In this document: positions 4,728 through 28,189 of the stretch, one piece after another
Layout: each line of letters begins with the position of its first letter
Position numbering within the stretch: position 1 is the stretch's first letter
Virus record (IMG/VR): IMGVR_UViG_2778261570_000004
Coordinates: 1 to 28,792 of that record
DNA length: 28,792 nucleotides
Strand: one strand, 5' to 3'
From: a virus
Lineage: Duplodnaviria; Heunggongvirae; Uroviricota; Caudoviricetes
Made by a program: the position numbers and the translations under genes
Notes under the pieces: model-generated
Told to the model about the DNA's origin: nothing
Database searches by the model: none
Seen by the model: only the letters and a program-made list of their open reading frames with translations

Positions 4728-4803
4728 GGCCCTTTAGCTCAGTGGTTAGAGCTGGCGACTCATAATCGCACGGTCACCGGTTCAAGTCCGGTAGGGGCCA
4801 CCA
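4728..4803 (+). tRNA. tRNA with anticodon CAT, ileX-like (Ile2 if lysidine-modified, otherwise Met)
   Basis: Acceptor GGCCCTT/AGGGGCC, anticodon loop CTCATAA, T-arm CCGG-TTCAAGT-CCGG, encoded CCA; strongly resembles E. coli ileX as recalled. Confidence 0.85.
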
Positions 4804-4992
4804 TATTTGGTTGTAACACGGCGTCTGGCACATGCGTCGTTAGCGGTCTGGTGACGTTAAAAGGGGGGAACCTTGCCCCTAGCTCAGGCAACGAACCAGG
4901 TAGCCGGAATGTGCAAGCCACCGTTTGTTGTTTCTCGGGTAAAGGGATTCACCATCCTGGCGATTCGGTGTGACAGCCGGGAAGAGTACGGC

Positions 4993-5045
4993 GCACAACA
5001 GGAAAAGGCGTTTAATTAACGTGAGCGCCGTTTCCGTTGTGGTAA
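4993..5045. repeat. hairpin module copy 5 (ACAACAGGAAAAGGCG / CGCCGTTTCCGTTGTGG)
   Basis: Same arm family as 2931, 3373, 3583. Confidence 0.35.
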
Positions 5046-5262
5046 TTGCGGCTATGCGCTCGTGACGAAGCCATTTTCATTCACTACGTTCTGATAAGTG
5101 ACGTCGCCAGGAGTGGCTAACCTGGCAGGTGGAGGCACCACCGCCACAACTCCTTTCAATTCATCATATAGCCGCTCAGGCTGTAACCCTTAATTAATAC
5201 GAAGTTTCGACATCTCTATCGGTTTAACCGAGGGATGGTCGCGCGTGTAAAAAGGAGACGTT

Positions 5263-5838
5263 ATGTTAACGGCGAACGATAACGCGTATGCAGAAGCAGA
5301 TCTCATATTCAGTGACTTCATCGGTCAGCGGGAACGCTGGACACAAAAGCGAGAGGAACTTTATGCCTCGTTAGTTCGCAAAGGTGTCAACATTGAAACC
5401 GCTCAAAGCGGCGATATGACGGTAGTCAGTGTTGGATTACATGGTGTGAGCGTGTCCGCAGCCAATCATGAGCCATACGTAGCGTTATCCGAGTCGATGG
5501 CAAGGCTAATTAAGTTTCTGAAGCAAACAGAAGCCAATAATGTTTTCATCGCCAAAAAGAACATCAATTTTTCTGCCGCCATGTTCTGGATGATGAAGGG
5601 GCTGGATGCCCGCCGGGCATCATGGCCTAAAGGGAGCTATTTATCGATGTTCCGTGGCAGCATTGGCAGCAAAGAAAAGCTCTTCGAATTCTTGCCGGAA
5701 GAGGCATTCGATATTGTGGAAGGGTGCGATGTGATGGTTATGCCTCGCCTGGTAATGATGAATGGGGATTTACAGGCGCAGACAGACTGGTTCGCAACTG
5801 GCGTGGATATTATCGCAACTGACTGGGAGGCATTCTGA
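5263..5838 (+). CDS. hypothetical protein with C-terminal DUF2829-like domain (191 aa)
   Basis: SD AAGGAG; C-terminal AAMFWMMKGLDARRASWPKGSYL...QTDWFATGVDIIATDWEAF resembles the DUF2829 pattern. Confidence 0.6.
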   Translation: MLTANDNAYAEADLIFSDFIGQRERWTQKREELYASLVRKGVNIETAQSGDMTVVSVGLHGVSVSAANHEPYVALSESMARLIKFLKQTEANNVFIAKKNINFSAAMFWMMKGLDARRASWPKGSYLSMFRGSIGSKEKLFEFLPEEAFDIVEGCDVMVMPRLVMMNGDLQAQTDWFATGVDIIATDWEAF

Positions 5839-6230
5839 TGTACGAGACAACAAAATTAAGCATTCACGAAGTCTCCAACGTGGAGTGGAATATCGTCACC
5901 TGTAAGATTGTATCGTGTAATGCTGCGCGTACTGATGCAGGCCATAAGAGCACGATAACAGGCTACATGGTAATGGCTTATAGGGGATTGAGAGTTCGCT
6001 TTATCTGGAAAGCTCGGCAATTGACACCATTCAGAGAGCCGTCAATGCCATTAGAGGTAGAACAGGATTATTTAAGCCTGCCGGAAATAGACGGTGCAAC
6101 GCTGGTGGATTCTGATGGTCGTAAGGCTGATTTTGAAGTCAGCTTAAAGGTGGCGCAGGCCGTAATTAATAACTCACGTGGTAAGTGGATCGCTAAGGTA
6201 AAACACGTCGTTCGCTTATCTCGCTGGTAG
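5838..6230 (+). CDS. hypothetical protein (130 aa), coupled to upstream gene (ATGA overlap)
   Basis: ORF with start overlapping preceding stop. Confidence 0.5.
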   Translation: MYETTKLSIHEVSNVEWNIVTCKIVSCNAARTDAGHKSTITGYMVMAYRGLRVRFIWKARQLTPFREPSMPLEVEQDYLSLPEIDGATLVDSDGRKADFEVSLKVAQAVINNSRGKWIAKVKHVVRLSRW

Positions 6231-6338
6231 TGTTAGATGAATGGAATTAATTTTCTAATATAACCAACTTTTTGCCAGTCTATACAGAAATAACATTCTC
6301 ATTATCATCCCCTCGGTCATTTCCTGCCCGGGGGATTA

Positions 6339-6731
6339 ATGGAGCATATCAGCAGCGCAGAAATTGCGGATATCATGATTAGGGCTGACTGCTATCTGAC
6401 AGTCACCGAAATTACCACTCTAGCTAAAGAAAAATATCCTCACCTTCATGTTTCACGCGTAAGTGTAACCAACATCATTCGGCATTTTGTGCGGTCAAGC
6501 CGAGCTATTTGTGAGCTTGATGATCGTGTTTACCCACGGAAATACTGGTTGCATGGCCTGAACGGATATCAGTTCAAGGTGCGCGGGCGCACCCCTGAAT
6601 ACGGCAGTTTGCTGGTTAAAAACTGTAGCCGGAAGTCTGCAGAACTGGCGCGACAAGAGCAGCGCAAGCTGGTGGACATGGCTAATAAGCTGTGGAATGC
6701 CGCAGTTAAAAAGCGTGGTGTTGCTTTATGA
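6339..6731 (+). CDS. hypothetical protein immediately upstream of terminase genes (130 aa)
   Basis: ORF; 4-nt overlap with terminase small subunit gene; position analogous to a late-gene activator in P1-type phages, not verified. Confidence 0.55.
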   Translation: MEHISSAEIADIMIRADCYLTVTEITTLAKEKYPHLHVSRVSVTNIIRHFVRSSRAICELDDRVYPRKYWLHGLNGYQFKVRGRTPEYGSLLVKNCSRKSAELARQEQRKLVDMANKLWNAAVKKRGVAL

Positions 6732-8092
6732 GCCTTGTTAATTGGGAAGAGCACCGCGCCAAATTTATAGCGTTGCGTGAAGAAAAAGGGATCACCGTAA
6801 AGGAATACTGCGAGCAACACGACCTTAGCTTCAATACCGCCAGAAAGCATCTCAATATGAAAAAAAATGAGGTGCGGTCGCAGGTGAAGACTACAAAAAA
6901 AAGCACCAAATCACCTGAAAAAAAACGGGCAGGAAGAGCAAAAAAAAGGCCAGAAGAGGGTACAGAAACAACAAAATTTACAGAAACTGACAATTCACAG
7001 AGCGGAAGTTCTTTCCGGAGCATGCCGAGAAAGAAAACTTCGGATCATAAAAATAACGACAATAATAACAATGAGATAAAAGAATCTGTCAGGAGATCAT
7101 TGCGCGAAAAAATGGCGAAAATGATCCCCACCGAAGATAAATGCGCCTCAAAAATCGAGGGATCTTCAGCAATGATCCCTGGCGGTGCTGTGCAGCGTGC
7201 CACGTTGCCCACTACGAGTGTGGCTCGCGACATGATGAAGAACGGCGCAGAAGAGCACCTGCGGTTAGCAATTCAAATGGCGCAAGAACGCGCACTTCAG
7301 TACCAAAGCATTGTTGATCAGGAGGCCGAACGCCTACAGGCGGAGATAGACGCCCTGGGTGATGAACAGCCAGAAGGAATGCACCCTGGGCAGCGACTTC
7401 TCGGTCTAATCAGTGACGCGGCCTACTACATGAACGATTTTATCAGTAGGTTGGCAGCGATATATCAGTCCGAACAAAAGCTGCGACAGGGTGATGAAAA
7501 ACTTCGTCAGGGTGCTCGCCAGCAAGCATTCAGAGAGGCCGAGGCCAGAGAAAAACTCGAATTAGCACGCCTACAGGCCGAACAGCGTGGCAAAGAGATT
7601 GAATATCGCATTGGCGCTGACGCACGCGCAGCCAGAGTTATCGCCGCCGCTATACGTATGCGTGAGCGCGAGGAGCTGGACGATATCGGTGTTGCTGAAT
7701 ACATCGAGCGTCAGGGTGTCAGTGTCCCGGCTATCCTCGCGGCGCGCGCGGCGAAAGCTATCACTCTTCTCGAACCTCCAGTTTCTGACATCAATGATGT
7801 TGATGATGAACAGCTGGACAAAGAAGCGAAGGAGTTTGCATCGCTTCAGGCTAACCATCCGCAATGGCTGGCAGAGCGCCGGGCGGATGTGGCAACCATT
7901 GTTGAAGATCTGGGGTGCGGAGATTACGACCACAATGGCGAGCGTAAGGCTGGGGAATTCGAGGCCAACGATGAAGAGTTGGACATTGACCCTTCGGCAA
8001 CGGCTGAAATTTACGGTGATTATGATGCATCAGATGCAGGGTATGACGCCGGAGATGATGATATTGCGATAGAACCGCCGGAGGATGACTAA
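6728..8092 (+). CDS. terminase small subunit-like protein (PacA-like)
   Basis: N-terminal HTH-like segment, Lys-rich linker, coiled coil, acidic C-terminal tail; TAATG-coupled to large subunit. Confidence 0.6.
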   Translation: MSLVNWEEHRAKFIALREEKGITVKEYCEQHDLSFNTARKHLNMKKNEVRSQVKTTKKSTKSPEKKRAGRAKKRPEEGTETTKFTETDNSQSGSSFRSMPRKKTSDHKNNDNNNNEIKESVRRSLREKMAKMIPTEDKCASKIEGSSAMIPGGAVQRATLPTTSVARDMMKNGAEEHLRLAIQMAQERALQYQSIVDQEAERLQAEIDALGDEQPEGMHPGQRLLGLISDAAYYMNDFISRLAAIYQSEQKLRQGDEKLRQGARQQAFREAEAREKLELARLQAEQRGKEIEYRIGADARAARVIAAAIRMREREELDDIGVAEYIERQGVSVPAILAARAAKAITLLEPPVSDINDVDDEQLDKEAKEFASLQANHPQWLAERRADVATIVEDLGCGDYDHNGERKAGEFEANDEELDIDPSATAEIYGDYDASDAGYDAGDDDIAIEPPEDD

Positions 8093-9600
8093 TGGCTGGT
8101 GGGCGCAAGATTAAATGCGTCACCAGCGATCCACGCTGGCGCGATATGGTAATCAAATACCGCTACAACTTTACCCAGGCTGTTGTTGATATATTCGGGA
8201 TGTTTCCCTCCCACCAGCAGCAGGAGATTATCCAGTCCGTACAGCAAAAAGGGAGCAGAACCACTGTTACCTCTGGTCACGGTACAGGGAAATCGTCGCT
8301 AACGGCTATGTTGTTGCTGATTTATTTGATTCTGTTCCCCGATGCCCGTGTCATCATTGTTGCTAACAAAATAGGTCAGGTTAAGACAGGTGTATTCAAA
8401 TACGTTAAACAGTATTGGGCGAATGCCGTTAAGCGTCATGGGTGGTTACAGACCTATTTTGTCCTGTCTGACACCATGTTTTATGAACGCTCTCGAAAGG
8501 GGATCTGGGAAGTTCTCTGCAAAGGCTATCGACTCGGTAACGAAGAAGCTCTGGCGGGGGAGCACGCGGCACATTTGCTTCTAATTCTGGATGAAGCATC
8601 AGGTATATCTGATAAAGCGATCGGCGTAATGACTGGCGCTCTGACTGAAGAAGATAACCGAATGTTGATGCTATCCCAGCCAACAAGGCCAAGTGGTTAT
8701 TTCTACGATTCGCACCATTCTCAAGCTAAAACCCCAGACAACCCGAAAGGGATCTGGACAGCAATTGTTCTTAACTCAGAAGAATCACCGTTCGTCACAC
8801 CACAATTCATCAGGCAGAAACTCCTGGAATATGGCGGGCGCGATTCTATTGAGTACATGGTCAAGGTTCTTGGTCAGTTTCCTCGGGAGATTAACGGCTA
8901 TTTGCTTGGTCGTGATGAATGCGATCGCGCTGCGCGGCGCAAGGTGTTGTTGGAGAAAAACTGGGGATGGGTGGCTACTGCTGACGTTGGTAACGGGCGA
9001 GACAAGTCAGTTCTTAATATCTGTAAAGTGTCTGGTCACCGGGAAAAGCGGCGTGTTGTTAACTTTAAGGTAATGGAAATGCCAGGGACTATGGACCCGC
9101 TGGCTTTTGCTGACTTTATATACAACGAATGCACGCCGGATAAATACCCGAATATTACAATCGCGGTTGACGCAGACGGTTTTGGTTCAGATACCTGTGC
9201 GCAGCTGGTGCGCCGTGGGGCTAATCCGGTACGGATTCGGTGGGGGAAACCCATGTTTTCGAACAAAGACAAGGAGCGTTTTGTTAACCAGCGTGCCTAC
9301 GCAAATATTATGGCTCGTGATGCCATAAAGTCAGGTCGTATGCGAATAGACAGCGACCCTAAAACGGCAGAGCAAGCGTCAAAAATCCCCTTTTTACTTA
9401 ATGAAGAAGGGAAGATGGCGATGATGCGCAAGGAGCACATGCGGCAAAAGCTGAACATCAAATCACCTGACCGATGGGATACCTACTGCTTTACAATGCT
9501 GGTGGACTATGTTCCTGCTAATGAAGATATCGGCGCTGAAATGGCTACCTTCCGCGATCAGGTTCTTGCAGATGTAGAAATGCCAGATCTGGATATTTGA
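8092..9600 (+). CDS. terminase large subunit (PacB-like)
   Basis: Walker A SGHGTGKSS, Walker B LLLILDEAS, C-terminal acidic nuclease-like segment ITIAVDADGFGSD. Confidence 0.8.
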   Translation: MAGGRKIKCVTSDPRWRDMVIKYRYNFTQAVVDIFGMFPSHQQQEIIQSVQQKGSRTTVTSGHGTGKSSLTAMLLLIYLILFPDARVIIVANKIGQVKTGVFKYVKQYWANAVKRHGWLQTYFVLSDTMFYERSRKGIWEVLCKGYRLGNEEALAGEHAAHLLLILDEASGISDKAIGVMTGALTEEDNRMLMLSQPTRPSGYFYDSHHSQAKTPDNPKGIWTAIVLNSEESPFVTPQFIRQKLLEYGGRDSIEYMVKVLGQFPREINGYLLGRDECDRAARRKVLLEKNWGWVATADVGNGRDKSVLNICKVSGHREKRRVVNFKVMEMPGTMDPLAFADFIYNECTPDKYPNITIAVDADGFGSDTCAQLVRRGANPVRIRWGKPMFSNKDKERFVNQRAYANIMARDAIKSGRMRIDSDPKTAEQASKIPFLLNEEGKMAMMRKEHMRQKLNIKSPDRWDTYCFTMLVDYVPANEDIGAEMATFRDQVLADVEMPDLDI

Positions 9601-13519: not shown

Positions 13520-13960
13520 ATGAATAACATGGCAACGAAAGAGCTTTTTAAGTTCCGTCCCAAATACAAAGCTCACAAAAAAAATGGAACCACGGTCATC
13601 ATTACGGATGACAACGGCGTGATGATTAATCTTACCGGGAGCGTAACTATTTCTGCTGGTGGCATCACCACCCAGCAAGAAGAAATCGACCTTGAAGCAG
13701 CCGACTTTTCAGACGCGCTGATGTGGCTGAAGGAAGGCAAGAAAGTTGCTCGACGCGGGTGGAACGGCGAAAACCAATTCTGCTGGCTGGTTCCTGAAGG
13801 ACAGTACCCGGCACGAATGGAAGCCATTAAGGGATATTTCCCCGGCGACCTCGTTCCGTATGGTGCTTATTTCGCCTTAAAAAATGCACAAGGTGTAGTT
13901 GTTCCGTGGGTGCCTTCAGTTGGCGACCTGCTGGCCTGTGACTGGTTTGTTGTGGAGTGA
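13520..13960 (+). CDS. DUF2829-like protein (146 aa)
   Basis: C-terminal ALMWLKEGKKVARRGWNG...PWVPSVGDLLACDWFVVE matches the DUF2829 pattern as recalled. Confidence 0.6.
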   Translation: MNNMATKELFKFRPKYKAHKKNGTTVIITDDNGVMINLTGSVTISAGGITTQQEEIDLEAADFSDALMWLKEGKKVARRGWNGENQFCWLVPEGQYPARMEAIKGYFPGDLVPYGAYFALKNAQGVVVPWVPSVGDLLACDWFVVE

Positions 13961-13966
13961 TTTGAC

Positions 13967-14734
13967 ATGGAAAGCACTAAAACAATTCAATACCGCTTGC
14001 GTAATGGCCTGCTGGTGGCTGTTAACGCCGACATGTCACTGCCGTTTGACACGATTGAACGCACTATCATGACGTATCTCGGCTTTAATGAAGAGCTGAA
14101 TGAAGAGCATGGCGTAGCTATATGGAGTGATGCAGACAGCGGCGTTCGTCGTTACATCACCGCCAGGGGCAAAGACTACTCTCTGGAAGAACTGTTTGCC
14201 CTTGCGCAGTCTTTCGAATGTGTAGCATTAGACCTGTTTAATGATCCTGCTATAGCGCAACGACTTATACGCGAGCTTGGGCTATCCGTTACACCAATTA
14301 TATTTAAAAATGGCAGCCTGACTGGCACATGGCGCGTAGAACGCATCTCAAACTACCTTCCATATAACCGACAGTTAAATGGAGTAATCTCCGGCGTTAA
14401 CCAGCCCGTAGCGTGTGAAAATGTAAACCTGGTTGTCGCTGTTTTGGCAACCGCATGTCGTGTTATCGGTTTGGCTAAACAGGCATTTATTCATTTCCCA
14501 AATGGTGCAGAAGGTAGCGCAGAGATTATCGCGTGTGATTTCGAATTTACCTGGATGCTACGCGAATATCTGGACCAAACAGTATTCCGTGCCGAAGAAC
14601 TGGATATGTATATCACGTCAACGATTCCAGACGATGTGCGAGCTGAAGCAATCGCTACAGCCAGGGCGAAATGCCGTGCGGCGATTGCAGAACAGGCCAA
14701 AGAAGAAGTTAAGGAAGTGGCAGATGGCGACTAA
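13967..14734 (+). CDS. hypothetical protein (255 aa)
   Basis: ORF; SD-like AAGGAAG for the next gene lies in its 3' end. Confidence 0.55.
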   Translation: MESTKTIQYRLRNGLLVAVNADMSLPFDTIERTIMTYLGFNEELNEEHGVAIWSDADSGVRRYITARGKDYSLEELFALAQSFECVALDLFNDPAIAQRLIRELGLSVTPIIFKNGSLTGTWRVERISNYLPYNRQLNGVISGVNQPVACENVNLVVAVLATACRVIGLAKQAFIHFPNGAEGSAEIIACDFEFTWMLREYLDQTVFRAEELDMYITSTIPDDVRAEAIATARAKCRAAIAEQAKEEVKEVADGD

Positions 14735-15818
14735 GAGCAATATTTATAAAGATCCGCGCTGGCTGTCGCTGGTGGAGAAATATAAAGACAATTGGGTACT
14801 GGCAGCAAAAGAATTGTTTGATATTGATTTAAGCCACCAGCAACAACAAATTGTTGAAGCTATACAGCCCAATAATGCAAAAGCTACTGTCACCACTCCG
14901 TATGGGATCGGACGACCGCAAGTGCTTGCTGTTATTAGTACCCTTTATACGATTATGTATCCTGATTCCCGGACAGTAATTGTTTATCCAAAATCAAATG
15001 TTTGCAAAAGAGGAATTGTTGCATATGTGTGGCAATGTTGGGAGGCATTGCTGAAAAAACAACCTTTTATCATTGAGTATTTTAAGGTCGGTGATAGCGG
15101 TCTGATGTTCAATGAATTTTGGGGAATGTGCTTTTGTAACTTCCGCCTTAACTATGAAGATAGCATTGCAGGTCACTACGCCGACCATCTTTTATTCATT
15201 ATTGTGGATTCCGCACATATCAGCGATCGGGCATACAGCATTGTGTGGGCAAGCATGACTAGTGGTGATTCACGCATATTGCTCACTTCAATTCCGTCAC
15301 CAGAGGAAATAGGCTTTTTTTATGATTCACATCATGGACGTGCTTTAGCTGAAGATAATCCGAGTGGTGTATATAAAGCCATTAAGCTGAGTGCGGAGGA
15401 TTCACCATTTATTACCCAAGAATATCTTGATCATTTTGCCGAAAGGTATGGCGGGCGAAATAGTGATGACTATCGTCGTATGATTCTTGGTGAGTTCCCT
15501 GGTATTAGGGAGGCTGTTCTTGAATCAGATATGCCGAAGACAATGCGCTTTTCGATGCCTGATGGTAGTGAATGGACAATACCATTACGAGTGATAGCCC
15601 GGCATCATGCGCAGCACCACGCCAAAAAACATGGCGTCACGACATTAGAATGGTTGAAATCGCACACCATTCCACTCTTCACTGCAGATCACAATGCTAT
15701 CGTTGAGTGGGCAAAAACAATTCCGTGGGAGAATGTCGCTGAATACGCCCACATGCTAAAACCGCCGAAAGACAGGCAAGAAATTAGCTGGCTGACAGCA
15801 GAAAAAATCATTGAGTGA
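14724..15818 (+). CDS. terminase large subunit paralog with degenerate Walker A/B and no nuclease domain (364 aa; track ORF 14433 is an upstream frame extension)
   Basis: By-eye alignment to the 8092 protein: DPRW, SHQQQ, FFYDSHH, YGGR conserved; GHGTGKS becomes PYGIGRP, ILDEAS becomes IVDSAH; unrelated C-terminus. Confidence 0.65.
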   Translation: MATKSNIYKDPRWLSLVEKYKDNWVLAAKELFDIDLSHQQQQIVEAIQPNNAKATVTTPYGIGRPQVLAVISTLYTIMYPDSRTVIVYPKSNVCKRGIVAYVWQCWEALLKKQPFIIEYFKVGDSGLMFNEFWGMCFCNFRLNYEDSIAGHYADHLLFIIVDSAHISDRAYSIVWASMTSGDSRILLTSIPSPEEIGFFYDSHHGRALAEDNPSGVYKAIKLSAEDSPFITQEYLDHFAERYGGRNSDDYRRMILGEFPGIREAVLESDMPKTMRFSMPDGSEWTIPLRVIARHHAQHHAKKHGVTTLEWLKSHTIPLFTADHNAIVEWAKTIPWENVAEYAHMLKPPKDRQEISWLTAEKIIE

Positions 15819-27877: not shown

Positions 27878-27982
27878 AATACTGACTGTTGCGCCATGGC
27901 ATTATCGTGGGGTATATTTCTACGGCACCTTAGAAAAACGGGTGCCGGGATTGGAACCCCGGATAATGTCAAAGGCGACACA

Positions 27983-28004
27983 GACGCCGAAAGCGTCTTT
28001 TTTT
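27983..28004 (+). terminator. rho-independent terminator (GACGC-cgaaa-GCGTC plus T7)
   Basis: Perfect 5-bp stem and run of seven T. Confidence 0.6.
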
Positions 28005-28189
28005 GTGTCATGCCATCGCACAGCCATACGTAGCGTTTAGCTCAGAGATCAATGGTAGTGCTGGCTGGGCTGCCGAAAGGCAGGCCGGTTCCCTTTGACG
28101 CCGGTAGTTCCAACCCAGTCAGTGCTACCGCCATTGAGATTGGAACCTCACGCGGTAGCTCCTTAACTTAGTCAAAGGAGGCTGCCAAT

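What the first reader, a model, noticed from the sequence alone, without database searches (positions are those of the whole stretch)
5263..5838. Second DUF2829-like domain fused to an unknown N-terminal domain, upstream of the packaging genes
The C-terminal about 90 aa (AAMFWMMKGLDARRASWPKGSYL...QTDWFATGVDIIATDWEAF) repeats the W/GW/DW pattern seen in the 13520 protein. Two paralogous DUF2829-like genes, each two or three genes upstream of a terminase large-subunit copy, suggest a duplicated module.
Basis: inference. Interest (0 to 1): 0.5.

Follow-up and report, generated by a model that had tools for sequence, protein, structure and literature searches.

The report
Divergent two-domain Tad2-like phage-plasmid protein
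The gene at 5263-5838 of this D6-like phage-plasmid encodes a real protein whose C-terminal half is a divergent copy of the phage "Tad2" immune-signal sponge domain joined to an uncharacterised N-terminal domain, but it did not arise by duplication of a gene module within this genome.

Summary

The "duplicated module" idea fails:
- The two domains are only about 26% identical, and each is closer to unrelated DUF2829 proteins.
- The genes in between are not homologous.
- The second "terminase" is a PacB ATPase-domain paralogue with a degenerate Walker A motif, and phage D6 lacks it while keeping both DUF2829 genes.

The window is a D6-like P1-family phage-plasmid. The gene (D6 orf6) sits directly upstream of lpa-pacA-pacB in lineages down to 23% protein identity, and dN/dS is about 0.1.

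The N-domain has an alpha-beta-beta-beta-alpha, dsRBD-like fold with no sequence family and no RNA-binding motifs. The Tad2 ligand clamp (W121, W176, D182) is kept, but the phosphate-binding GWNG loop is SWP-KG.

Most likely it is an accessory signal sponge with altered specificity. That function is inferred, not shown. Public databases already label relatives "Tad2 family", so novelty is modest.

The parts
5263..5838 (+). Gene for the 191-aa two-domain protein (homologue of phage D6 orf6 / H7U15_gp006; exact protein WP_172823438.1)
   Evidence: ORF. It is 91.6% identical to D6 orf6. dN/dS is about 0.1 against D6-type and L028-type alleles. The exact sequence is in NCBI/UniRef.
5263..5553 (+). 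N-terminal domain (residues 1-97): alpha-alpha-beta-beta-beta-alpha, dsRBD-like fold, acidic, no sequence family
5554..5835 (+). C-terminal Tad2-like (DUF2829, PF11195) domain (residues 98-191), non-canonical 'SWP-KG' subtype
5251..5257 (+). Shine-Dalgarno sequence AAAGGAG, 5 nt before the ATG
   Evidence: Read directly from the sequence. Conserved in all D6-like variants.
5150..5156 (+). Predicted anti-SD (CUCCUUU) that pairs with the SD in the minimum-energy fold of the leader
   Evidence: Fold of 5000-5275 has z=-2.77. The same long-range SD pairing is predicted in 6 of 7 D6-type variants, including L003, which has a different sequence at that position. This is a prediction only.
4804..5262 (+). 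Conserved non-coding leader between tRNA(CAT) and the gene. Its first ~200 nt are shared with P1 (there between trnI and ban) and show covariation.
5838..6230 (+). orf5 (130 aa, unknown function). Its start codon overlaps the target's stop codon (ATGA). It co-occurs with the target in D6-like elements but is absent from the more distant lineages.
   Evidence: No Pfam or PDB match.
6339..9600 (+). lpa - pacA - pacB, the conserved downstream neighbours
   Evidence: Pfam BPP1_LPA 6e-55. D6 annotation. Synteny in L003, L006, L036, L037 and L028.
13520..13960 (+). The other DUF2829 gene: a canonical Tad2 (146 aa, GWNG loop), downstream of a dUTPase gene
   Evidence: PF11195 5.9e-23. ModTad2 9EIB 8e-21. 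46% identity to ModTad2. D6 orf114 is 98.6% identical.
14721..15818 (+).
   Evidence: BLASTP 37% identity over PacB residues 10-264. Absent from D6; 51% identical homologues occur in some P1 variants.

Best explanation
The gene encodes a soluble, acidic 21-kDa accessory protein of D6-like (P1-family) phage-plasmids. It is built from an N-terminal alpha-beta-beta-beta-alpha domain and a C-terminal Tad2/DUF2829 domain. Shown here: the domain identity, the fold, the conserved position directly upstream of lpa-pacA-pacB, and purifying selection on both domains. Inferred: like characterised Tad2 proteins, it probably oligomerises and acts as a sponge that sequesters a small nucleotide-derived immune signal of the host, so that the element can replicate or be induced in cells carrying signalling defence systems. 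It keeps the two tryptophans and the aspartate that clamp the ligand in solved Tad2 proteins. It lacks the Asn-Gly phosphate-binding loop (GWNG is SWP-) and the Thr of the S-x-T-D motif. Its ligand is therefore probably different from that of the canonical Tad2 (13520 gene) carried by the same genome, so the two would be complementary rather than redundant. The N-domain lacks dsRNA-binding motifs and is acidic, so it most likely serves oligomerisation or partner binding. Expression is probably by read-through from the upstream tciABC-tRNA operon. This is the position that ban occupies in P1. A structured leader may mask the ribosome-binding site.
For: - Ligand residues: W121, W176, D187 and W188 are invariant in 15 family members at 20-99% identity. 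W121, W176 and D182 align with SPO1 W25/W73/D79 and Hgm W21/W87/D93. Those residues contact gcADPR and are needed for binding (10.1101/2023.05.01.538930; 10.1101/2023.11.15.567273).
- Real, constrained gene: dN/dS about 0.1 in both domains.
- Accessory character: the protein is 43% identical where PacB is 86% identical, and 23-30% identical where PacB is 71% identical, always at the same locus. P1 has an HNH gene (pdcB) at this place. Some copies are disrupted.
- Diversity of the family: Tad2 family members with different ligand specificities are documented (10.1101/2025.08.24.671296).
- Prevalence: Tad2 is reported in 93% of D6-like phage-plasmids (10.1101/2025.09.12.675607).
Against: No binding or anti-defence assay exists for this protein or any member of its 'WP' subtype. 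The Asn (N26 in SPO1, N22 in Hgm) that contacts the phosphates is Pro, the following Gly is deleted, and T92 (Hgm numbering) is Val. The position after W121 is not conserved in the family (P/R/M/N/D/G/H). The cyclic-dinucleotide pocket residues of HgmTad2 (R31, S47, F70, N85) are not recognisably conserved. The conserved tryptophans may be structural rather than ligand-binding. Tetramerisation with a 97-residue domain attached to helix alpha1 is untested. No promoter or C1-operator-like motif was found in the leader, so the timing of expression is unknown.
Confidence: 0.5

Rival explanations
1. The Tad2 fold has been repurposed. The protein is not a signal sponge but uses the scaffold and the N-domain for something else, for example binding a host or phage protein, or modulating late transcription or packaging together with the neighbouring lpa-pacAB genes.
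Against: P1, which has the same lpa-pacAB-c1 arrangement and a functional life cycle, lacks the gene and has pdcB instead. Copies are frameshifted or truncated in a number of otherwise intact elements, which argues against an essential late function. The ligand-clamp W/W/D residues are the most conserved positions of the whole protein.
Confidence: 0.3
2. One reading: the two DUF2829 genes are paralogues created by duplication of a module comprising a DUF2829 gene plus a large terminase.
For: Both genes carry PF11195 domains. A PacB homologue lies downstream of each.
Against: The domains are 25.6% identical, and each is closer to outside proteins. The intervening genes are unrelated. D6 keeps both DUF2829 genes but has no PacB-like gene. 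The PacB-like gene occurs at 51% identity in some P1 variants, independently of the D6 context.
Confidence: 0.03
3. The protein is a toxin of an 'MW1434 family type I toxin-antitoxin system', as NCBI names some close relatives.
For: The name is given by NCBI to P0008 and related proteins. The label traces to an 81-aa S. aureus phiSa2 prophage protein listed among predicted type I toxins (PMC6266405).
Against: The protein is 191 aa, acidic (pI 5.0) and has no hydrophobic segment (maximum Kyte-Doolittle over 19 residues is 1.2). The predicted fold is globular and of the Tad2 type. No antisense RNA family was found at the locus. The same proteins are named 'Thoeris anti-defense Tad2 family protein' by UniRef and by newer NCBI records.
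Confidence: 0.03

Closest known systems
Tad2 (Thoeris anti-defence 2; DUF2829/PF11195) sponges: SPO1 Tad2 (8SME/8WJE), HgmTad2 = 'AcrIIA7' (8KBI), SptTad2 (8WJD), ModTad2 (9EIB)
   Same: Same domain family by sequence profile and by predicted fold. The ligand-clamping Trp pair, the Asp, and the C-terminal A-x-D-W are conserved. It has an 'LP(E/D)' insertion of the HgmTad2/SptTad2 type. It is encoded by a phage-like mobile element.
   Different: It carries an extra 97-residue N-terminal folded domain. The GWNG phosphate loop is replaced by SWP with a one-residue deletion. S-x-T-D is T-x-V-D. The cyclic-dinucleotide pocket residues are not conserved. Identity to solved Tad2 proteins is only 16-25%. 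No biochemical data exist.
The canonical Tad2 of the same element (window 13520-13960; D6 orf114)
   Same: Same Pfam family and same genome. Both have N-terminal extensions.
   Different: The two are 25.6% identical. The 146-aa protein has the canonical GWNG loop and is 46% identical to ModTad2, a binder of His-ADPR and cUMP (10.1101/2025.08.24.671296). The N-terminal extensions are unrelated. The genomic neighbourhoods differ: dUTPase/isaA-like versus tRNA/lpa.
Double-stranded-RNA-binding domain (dsRBD) fold; phage 'ABA-sandwich'-like protein 1R7L
   Different: There is no sequence match to any Pfam family in 10 members. It has no GPxH loop and no KKxAK helix cap, its beta1-beta2 loop is only 2-3 residues, and it is acidic. 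The similarity is at the level of a simple fold only.
Phage P1 pdcB / ban positions
   Same: The gene occupies the slot immediately upstream of lpa, where P1 has pdcB. It also follows tciABC-trnI, as ban does in P1.
   Different: P1 PdcB is an HNH endonuclease and Ban is a DnaB-type helicase. Neither is related to the target.

Membership tests
Tad2 / DUF2829 (PF11195) domain family | Sequence match to the family profile above the curated threshold | tested here: met
   38.7 bits against a gathering score of 25, E=1.4e-9, covering profile positions 2-72 of 73. The family profile hits all solved Tad2 chains at 1.8e-7 to 6e-6.
Tad2 / DUF2829 (PF11195) domain family | Tad2 fold (helix alpha1 followed by an antiparallel sheet with inserted short helices) | tested here: met
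Tad2 signal sponge (functional class) | Tryptophan pair that sandwiches the ligand (SPO1 W25/W73; Hgm W21/W87) | tested here: met
   W121 and W176 align to these positions and are invariant in 15 family members.
Tad2 signal sponge (functional class) | Asn-Gly of the GWNG loop contacting the diphosphate (SPO1 N26; Hgm N22/G23) | tested here: not met
   The target has S-W-P and lacks one residue (SWP-KG). The position is variable across the two-domain family.
Tad2 signal sponge (functional class) | S-x-T-D motif after the second Trp (Hgm S90/T92/D93; SPO1 S76/T78/D79) | tested here: inconclusive
   The target has T179-G-V181-D182. The Asp is kept, Ser to Thr is conservative, and Thr to Val loses the hydroxyl. 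The aligned Asp (D182) is kept in 11 of 15 members.
Tad2 signal sponge (functional class) | Cyclic-dinucleotide pocket of HgmTad2/SptTad2 (R31, S47, F70, N85) | tested here: not met
   The aligned residues are F130/R131, F143, M158 and T174. The alignment in the insertion is uncertain.
Tad2 signal sponge (functional class) | Homotetramer forming inter-subunit pockets | not testable with these tools
   Only monomer prediction is available. A 97-residue domain precedes helix alpha1, which mediates tetramerisation in SPO1 Tad2.
Tad2 signal sponge (functional class) | Binds gcADPR, His-ADPR or other signals and relieves Thoeris, CBASS or Pycsar defence | not testable with these tools
   Requires biochemistry and phage assays.
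dsRBD (PF00035) for the N-domain | alpha-beta-beta-beta-alpha fold | tested here: met
dsRBD (PF00035) for the N-domain | Sequence-profile match and dsRNA-contact motifs (GPxH in the beta1-beta2 loop, KKxAK at the start of alpha2), basic surface | tested here: not met
   No dsrm hit at E<=10 in 10 members. The loop is 'SGD', alpha2 begins 'EPYVALSES', and the pI is 5.3.
Type I toxin (MW1434 family label) | Small hydrophobic membrane peptide with a cis-antisense RNA | tested here: not met
   191 aa, pI 5.0, no hydrophobic segment. No antisense RNA family at the locus.

The most novel reading that the evidence does not exclude
The 'WP-type' two-domain Tad2 proteins are a distinct sponge class that captures an immune signal not bound by canonical Tad2, or two signals, one per domain or interface. 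D6-like phage-plasmids would then carry two complementary sponges. The gene's translation would be gated by a structured leader that hides the ribosome-binding site. That leader follows a previously undescribed ~200-nt structured RNA shared with P1.
Probability: 0.25. Interest if true: 0.6.

Novelty: new variant of a known kind. Interest (0 to 1): 0.35.

Why it matters
Tad2 sponges are a main way in which phages defeat signalling immunity (Thoeris, CBASS, Pycsar), and their ligand range is still being mapped. This protein defines a conserved, vertically inherited subfamily with an added N-terminal domain and an altered ligand loop. It occurs in clinically widespread E. coli, Salmonella and Shigella phage-plasmids that also carry a canonical Tad2. 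If it binds a different signal, it would extend the known specificity of the family. It would also explain why these elements keep two Tad2-family genes. On the practical side, the finding corrects conflicting database labels (hypothetical protein, type I toxin, Tad2 family) and removes a spurious 'duplicated packaging module' idea.

Tried and rejected
- The first AF2 run with 6 close sequences gave pLDDT 45 and was discarded. Adding distant members from the exhaustive HMM search raised it to 87.
- The word-indexed protein searches found only the narrow family.
- The search for related loci with the 15-sequence alignment failed because it had no conserved stretch. The genome-contig scan found no relative.
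- The P1 C1-operator consensus has no match in the window at up to 3 mismatches.
- The sigma-70 scan finds no promoter in the leader.
- The P1 late-promoter -22 motif is not enriched.
- Rfam finds nothing in the leader at E<=5.
- Pfam and NCBIfam give nothing for the N-domain, for orf5 or for the isaA-like protein, and PDB gives nothing for orf5.
- PacA versus the 13967 protein, and orf5 versus the 13967 protein, show no similarity.
- The 4801-5008 RNA is not more stable than shuffled sequence (z=+0.55), although it shows covariation.

Full report
**What the window is.** The 28.8-kb window is part of a D6-like, P1-family phage-plasmid of E. coli or Salmonella.
- Region 4900-6800 is 87.5% identical to Escherichia phage D6 over its full length.
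- The window matches about 90-kb non-mobilizable plasmids at 92-98% identity.
- From the ORF list and the D6 annotation, the gene order is: tRNA-Asn, tRNA-Thr, tciA, tciB, tciC, tRNA(CAT), the target gene (D6 orf6), orf5, lpa, pacA, pacB, c1 (minus strand), a cre-like recombinase, two unknown genes, dUTPase, a 146-aa DUF2829 protein, an isaA-like gene, a PacB-like gene, and doc (minus strand).
- The exact 191-aa protein is in NCBI (WP_172823438.1), on an E. coli contig of 28,792 bases.

**Check of the observation.** ORF 5263..5838 is real. It has a strong Shine-Dalgarno sequence.
- Residues 102-190 match Pfam PF11195 (DUF2829, renamed "Thoeris anti-defense 2-like domain") at E=1.4e-9, 38.7 bits against a cut-off of 25. 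The 13520 protein matches the same family at 5.9e-23.
- The two proteins align directly at 26% identity (E=3e-4).
- As a single sequence the target barely detects solved Tad2 proteins (E=0.74). The 146-aa protein hits ModTad2 at 8e-21.
- An exhaustive HMM search of 1.84 billion representatives found a wider family of two-domain proteins of 190-270 aa, down to about 20% identity.
- The profile of those 15 sequences hits SptTad2, HgmTad2/AcrIIA7, ModTad2 and SPO1 Tad2 at 1.8e-7 to 6e-6, always with its C-terminal half only.
- With that alignment AlphaFold2 gives a confident model, pLDDT 87. A first model from six close sequences was poor.

**The N-terminal domain.** Residues about 28-91 form an alpha-beta-beta-beta-alpha unit preceded by another helix.
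- No Pfam family matches in ten family members, even at E<=10.
- The canonical RNA-contact motifs are absent, and the domain is acidic, with pI 5.3.
- I treat this as similarity at the level of a simple fold, not as membership. The likely role is oligomerisation or partner binding, and this is inference.
- BFVD holds many other phage Tad2-like proteins with assorted N-terminal extensions, so fusion as such is not unusual.

**The ligand site.** In SPO1 Tad2, gcADPR is held by W25, W73, N26 and D79, with help from S76 and T78 (10.1101/2023.05.01.538930). In HgmTad2 the equivalent residues are W21, N22, G23, W87, S90, T92 and D93. The mutants W21A/N22A and S90A/T92A/D93A lose binding (10.1101/2023.11.15.567273).
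- In the target these positions are W121, P122, a one-residue deletion, W176, T179, V181 and D182.
- W121 and W176 are invariant across the whole two-domain family. The residue after W121 is not conserved.
- Among distant relatives there are two clear subtypes. The canonical subtype reads GWNGKG...WLASQTDMLAxDW. A non-canonical subtype reads xW(P/A/x)xG, and the target belongs to it.
- The cyclic-dinucleotide pocket of HgmTad2 is not recognisably conserved.
- The aromatic clamp and the Asp are kept, but the phosphate-binding loop is changed. This fits a sponge with a different ligand, but it equally allows loss of the sponge function.

**Is it a functional gene, and what kind?**
- dN/dS is about 0.1 for both domains against the D6-type and L028-type alleles.
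- The gene lies immediately upstream of lpa-pacA-pacB-c1 in every lineage found. This covers D6, the 52-55% allele, the 43% allele (L036: PacB 86%, Lpa 60%, C1 42%), and a 23% relative (L006: PacB 71%).
- It is thus inherited vertically and evolves about as fast as the immunity repressor.
- P1 itself has an HNH gene (pdcB) at this site.
- Disrupted copies exist. L035 has internal frameshifts, there are truncated clusters, and a 63-aa C-terminal fragment is called on 131 contigs. Even so, 121 of 125 PLSDB plasmids carry a full-length match.
- This pattern fits a useful but dispensable accessory gene better than an essential late or packaging factor.
- A survey of phage-plasmids reports Tad2 in 93% of D6-like elements (10.1101/2025.09.12.675607). 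That figure most likely refers to the canonical 146-aa gene.

**The "duplicated module" interpretation.** It does not hold, for four reasons.
- The target C-domain is closer to unrelated single-domain DUF2829 proteins (31-38% identity) than to the 146-aa protein (25.6%). The 146-aa protein is in turn 46% identical to ModTad2.
- The genes between each DUF2829 gene and the downstream PacB homologue are unrelated.
- The second "terminase" matches only the ATPase half of PacB, at 37% identity. Walker A has changed from GHGTGKS to PYGIGRP, and Walker B from LILDEAS to FIIVDSA.
- That gene is missing from D6, which keeps both DUF2829 genes. It occurs at 51% identity in a few P1 variants.

**Surroundings and expression.**
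- orf5 (130 aa, no known family) overlaps the target's stop codon. It accompanies the target only in D6-like elements.
- No sigma-70-like promoter, P1-type C1 operator or late-promoter -22 box is evident in the 459-nt leader.
- A motif, TTCTAAYAYA, is strongly over-represented: 7 occurrences against 0.17 expected. It lies upstream of lpa and near c1, and is probably the core of the D6-type operator. It is absent from the leader.
- The leader is unusually conserved, at 92-100% identity where orf5, lpa and pacA are only 67-78% identical.
- Its first ~200 nt are identical to the P1 sequence between trnI and ban. They occur in about 20 variants that preserve a predicted structure. Ten pairs show double-sided changes, against 3.4 +/- 1.0 in shuffles and 1-3 in slid controls. 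The single sequence, however, is not unusually stable (z=+0.55).
- The second part of the leader folds better than shuffled sequence (z=-2.77). In that fold the ribosome-binding site pairs with CUCCUUU about 100 nt upstream, and L003, a variant with a different sequence at that position, shows the same pairing.
- By synteny with P1, the gene sits where ban sits, at the end of the tci-tRNA operon. Early read-through expression with translational gating is plausible but unproven.

**Comparison with what is known, and verdict.**
- The protein is a member of the PF11195 domain family by sequence and by predicted fold.
- It is not a demonstrated member of the functional class "Tad2 signal sponge". 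One defining ligand-contact feature is not met, and the activity is untestable here.
- Public databases already label relatives "DUF2829", "Thoeris anti-defense Tad2 family protein" or, misleadingly, "MW1434 family type I TA system toxin" (PMC6266405). The toxin label is contradicted by size, charge and the lack of any hydrophobic segment.
- The novelty is that of a variant: a conserved two-domain, WP-type subfamily fixed upstream of lpa in D6-like phage-plasmids.
- Interest is moderate to low (0.35). The most interesting reading that remains open is a new ligand specificity, complementary to that of the co-resident canonical Tad2.

Noticed in passing
window 4801-5000 (+); also P1 NC_005856 71006-71200 and about 20 variants in loci L001, L003, L009-L038: An unannotated ~200-nt conserved element lies directly 3' of tRNA(CAT). 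It is identical in P1, where it sits between trnI and ban. A predicted multi-helix structure is kept through compensatory changes: 10 pairs show double-sided changes against 3.4 in shuffles. There is no Rfam hit, and the single-sequence stability is not unusual. It is a candidate new structured RNA.
   Followed up: partly
window 5000-5262 (+): This D6-lineage-specific leader is more conserved (92-100%) than the flanking coding genes (67-78%). Its fold has z=-2.77. The Shine-Dalgarno sequence (5251-5257) is predicted to pair with CUCCUUU (5150-5156), and L003, a divergent variant with a different sequence at that position, shows the same pairing. L003 and L037 carry 61-nt and 17-nt insertions in the leader.
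   Followed up: partly
window 14721-15818 (+): A PacB paralogue containing only the terminase ATPase domain (37% identity). Its Walker A (PYGIGRP) and Walker B motifs are degenerate and its C-terminal ~100 aa are unrelated to PacB. It is absent from D6, and 51% identical homologues occur in some P1 variants (MH422554, MH445380). It may be a pseudo-ATPase of unknown role.
   Followed up: partly
window 728, 1978, 6253, 10730, 12131, 22148, 26720: The motif TTCTAAYAYA occurs 7 times against 0.17 expected, including upstream of lpa and in the c1 control region. It is probably the core of the D6-type C1 operator. The P1 operator consensus has no match in the window.
   Followed up: partly
window 13520-13960 (+): A canonical Tad2 (146 aa), 46% identical to ModTad2 (a sponge for His-ADPR and cUMP). 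It lies directly after a dUTPase gene and has its own unrelated ~55-aa N-terminal extension.
   Followed up: partly
window 27925-28135 (+): Rfam hits to the isrK Hfq-binding RNA (27925-28003) and to the C4 antisense RNA of the P1/P7 immunity I region (28048-28135).
   Followed up: no
locus L035 3207-3779; clusters P0006, P0007, P0010, P0041: Some elements carry frameshifted or truncated copies of the target gene. A 63-aa C-terminal fragment starting at M129 is called on 131 contigs.
   Followed up: partly
window 4728-4803 (+): ARAGORN calls the tRNA with anticodon CAT tRNA-Met. Its P1 counterpart, which is identical in sequence, is annotated tRNA-Ile2 (ileX-like, lysidine-dependent).
   Followed up: no
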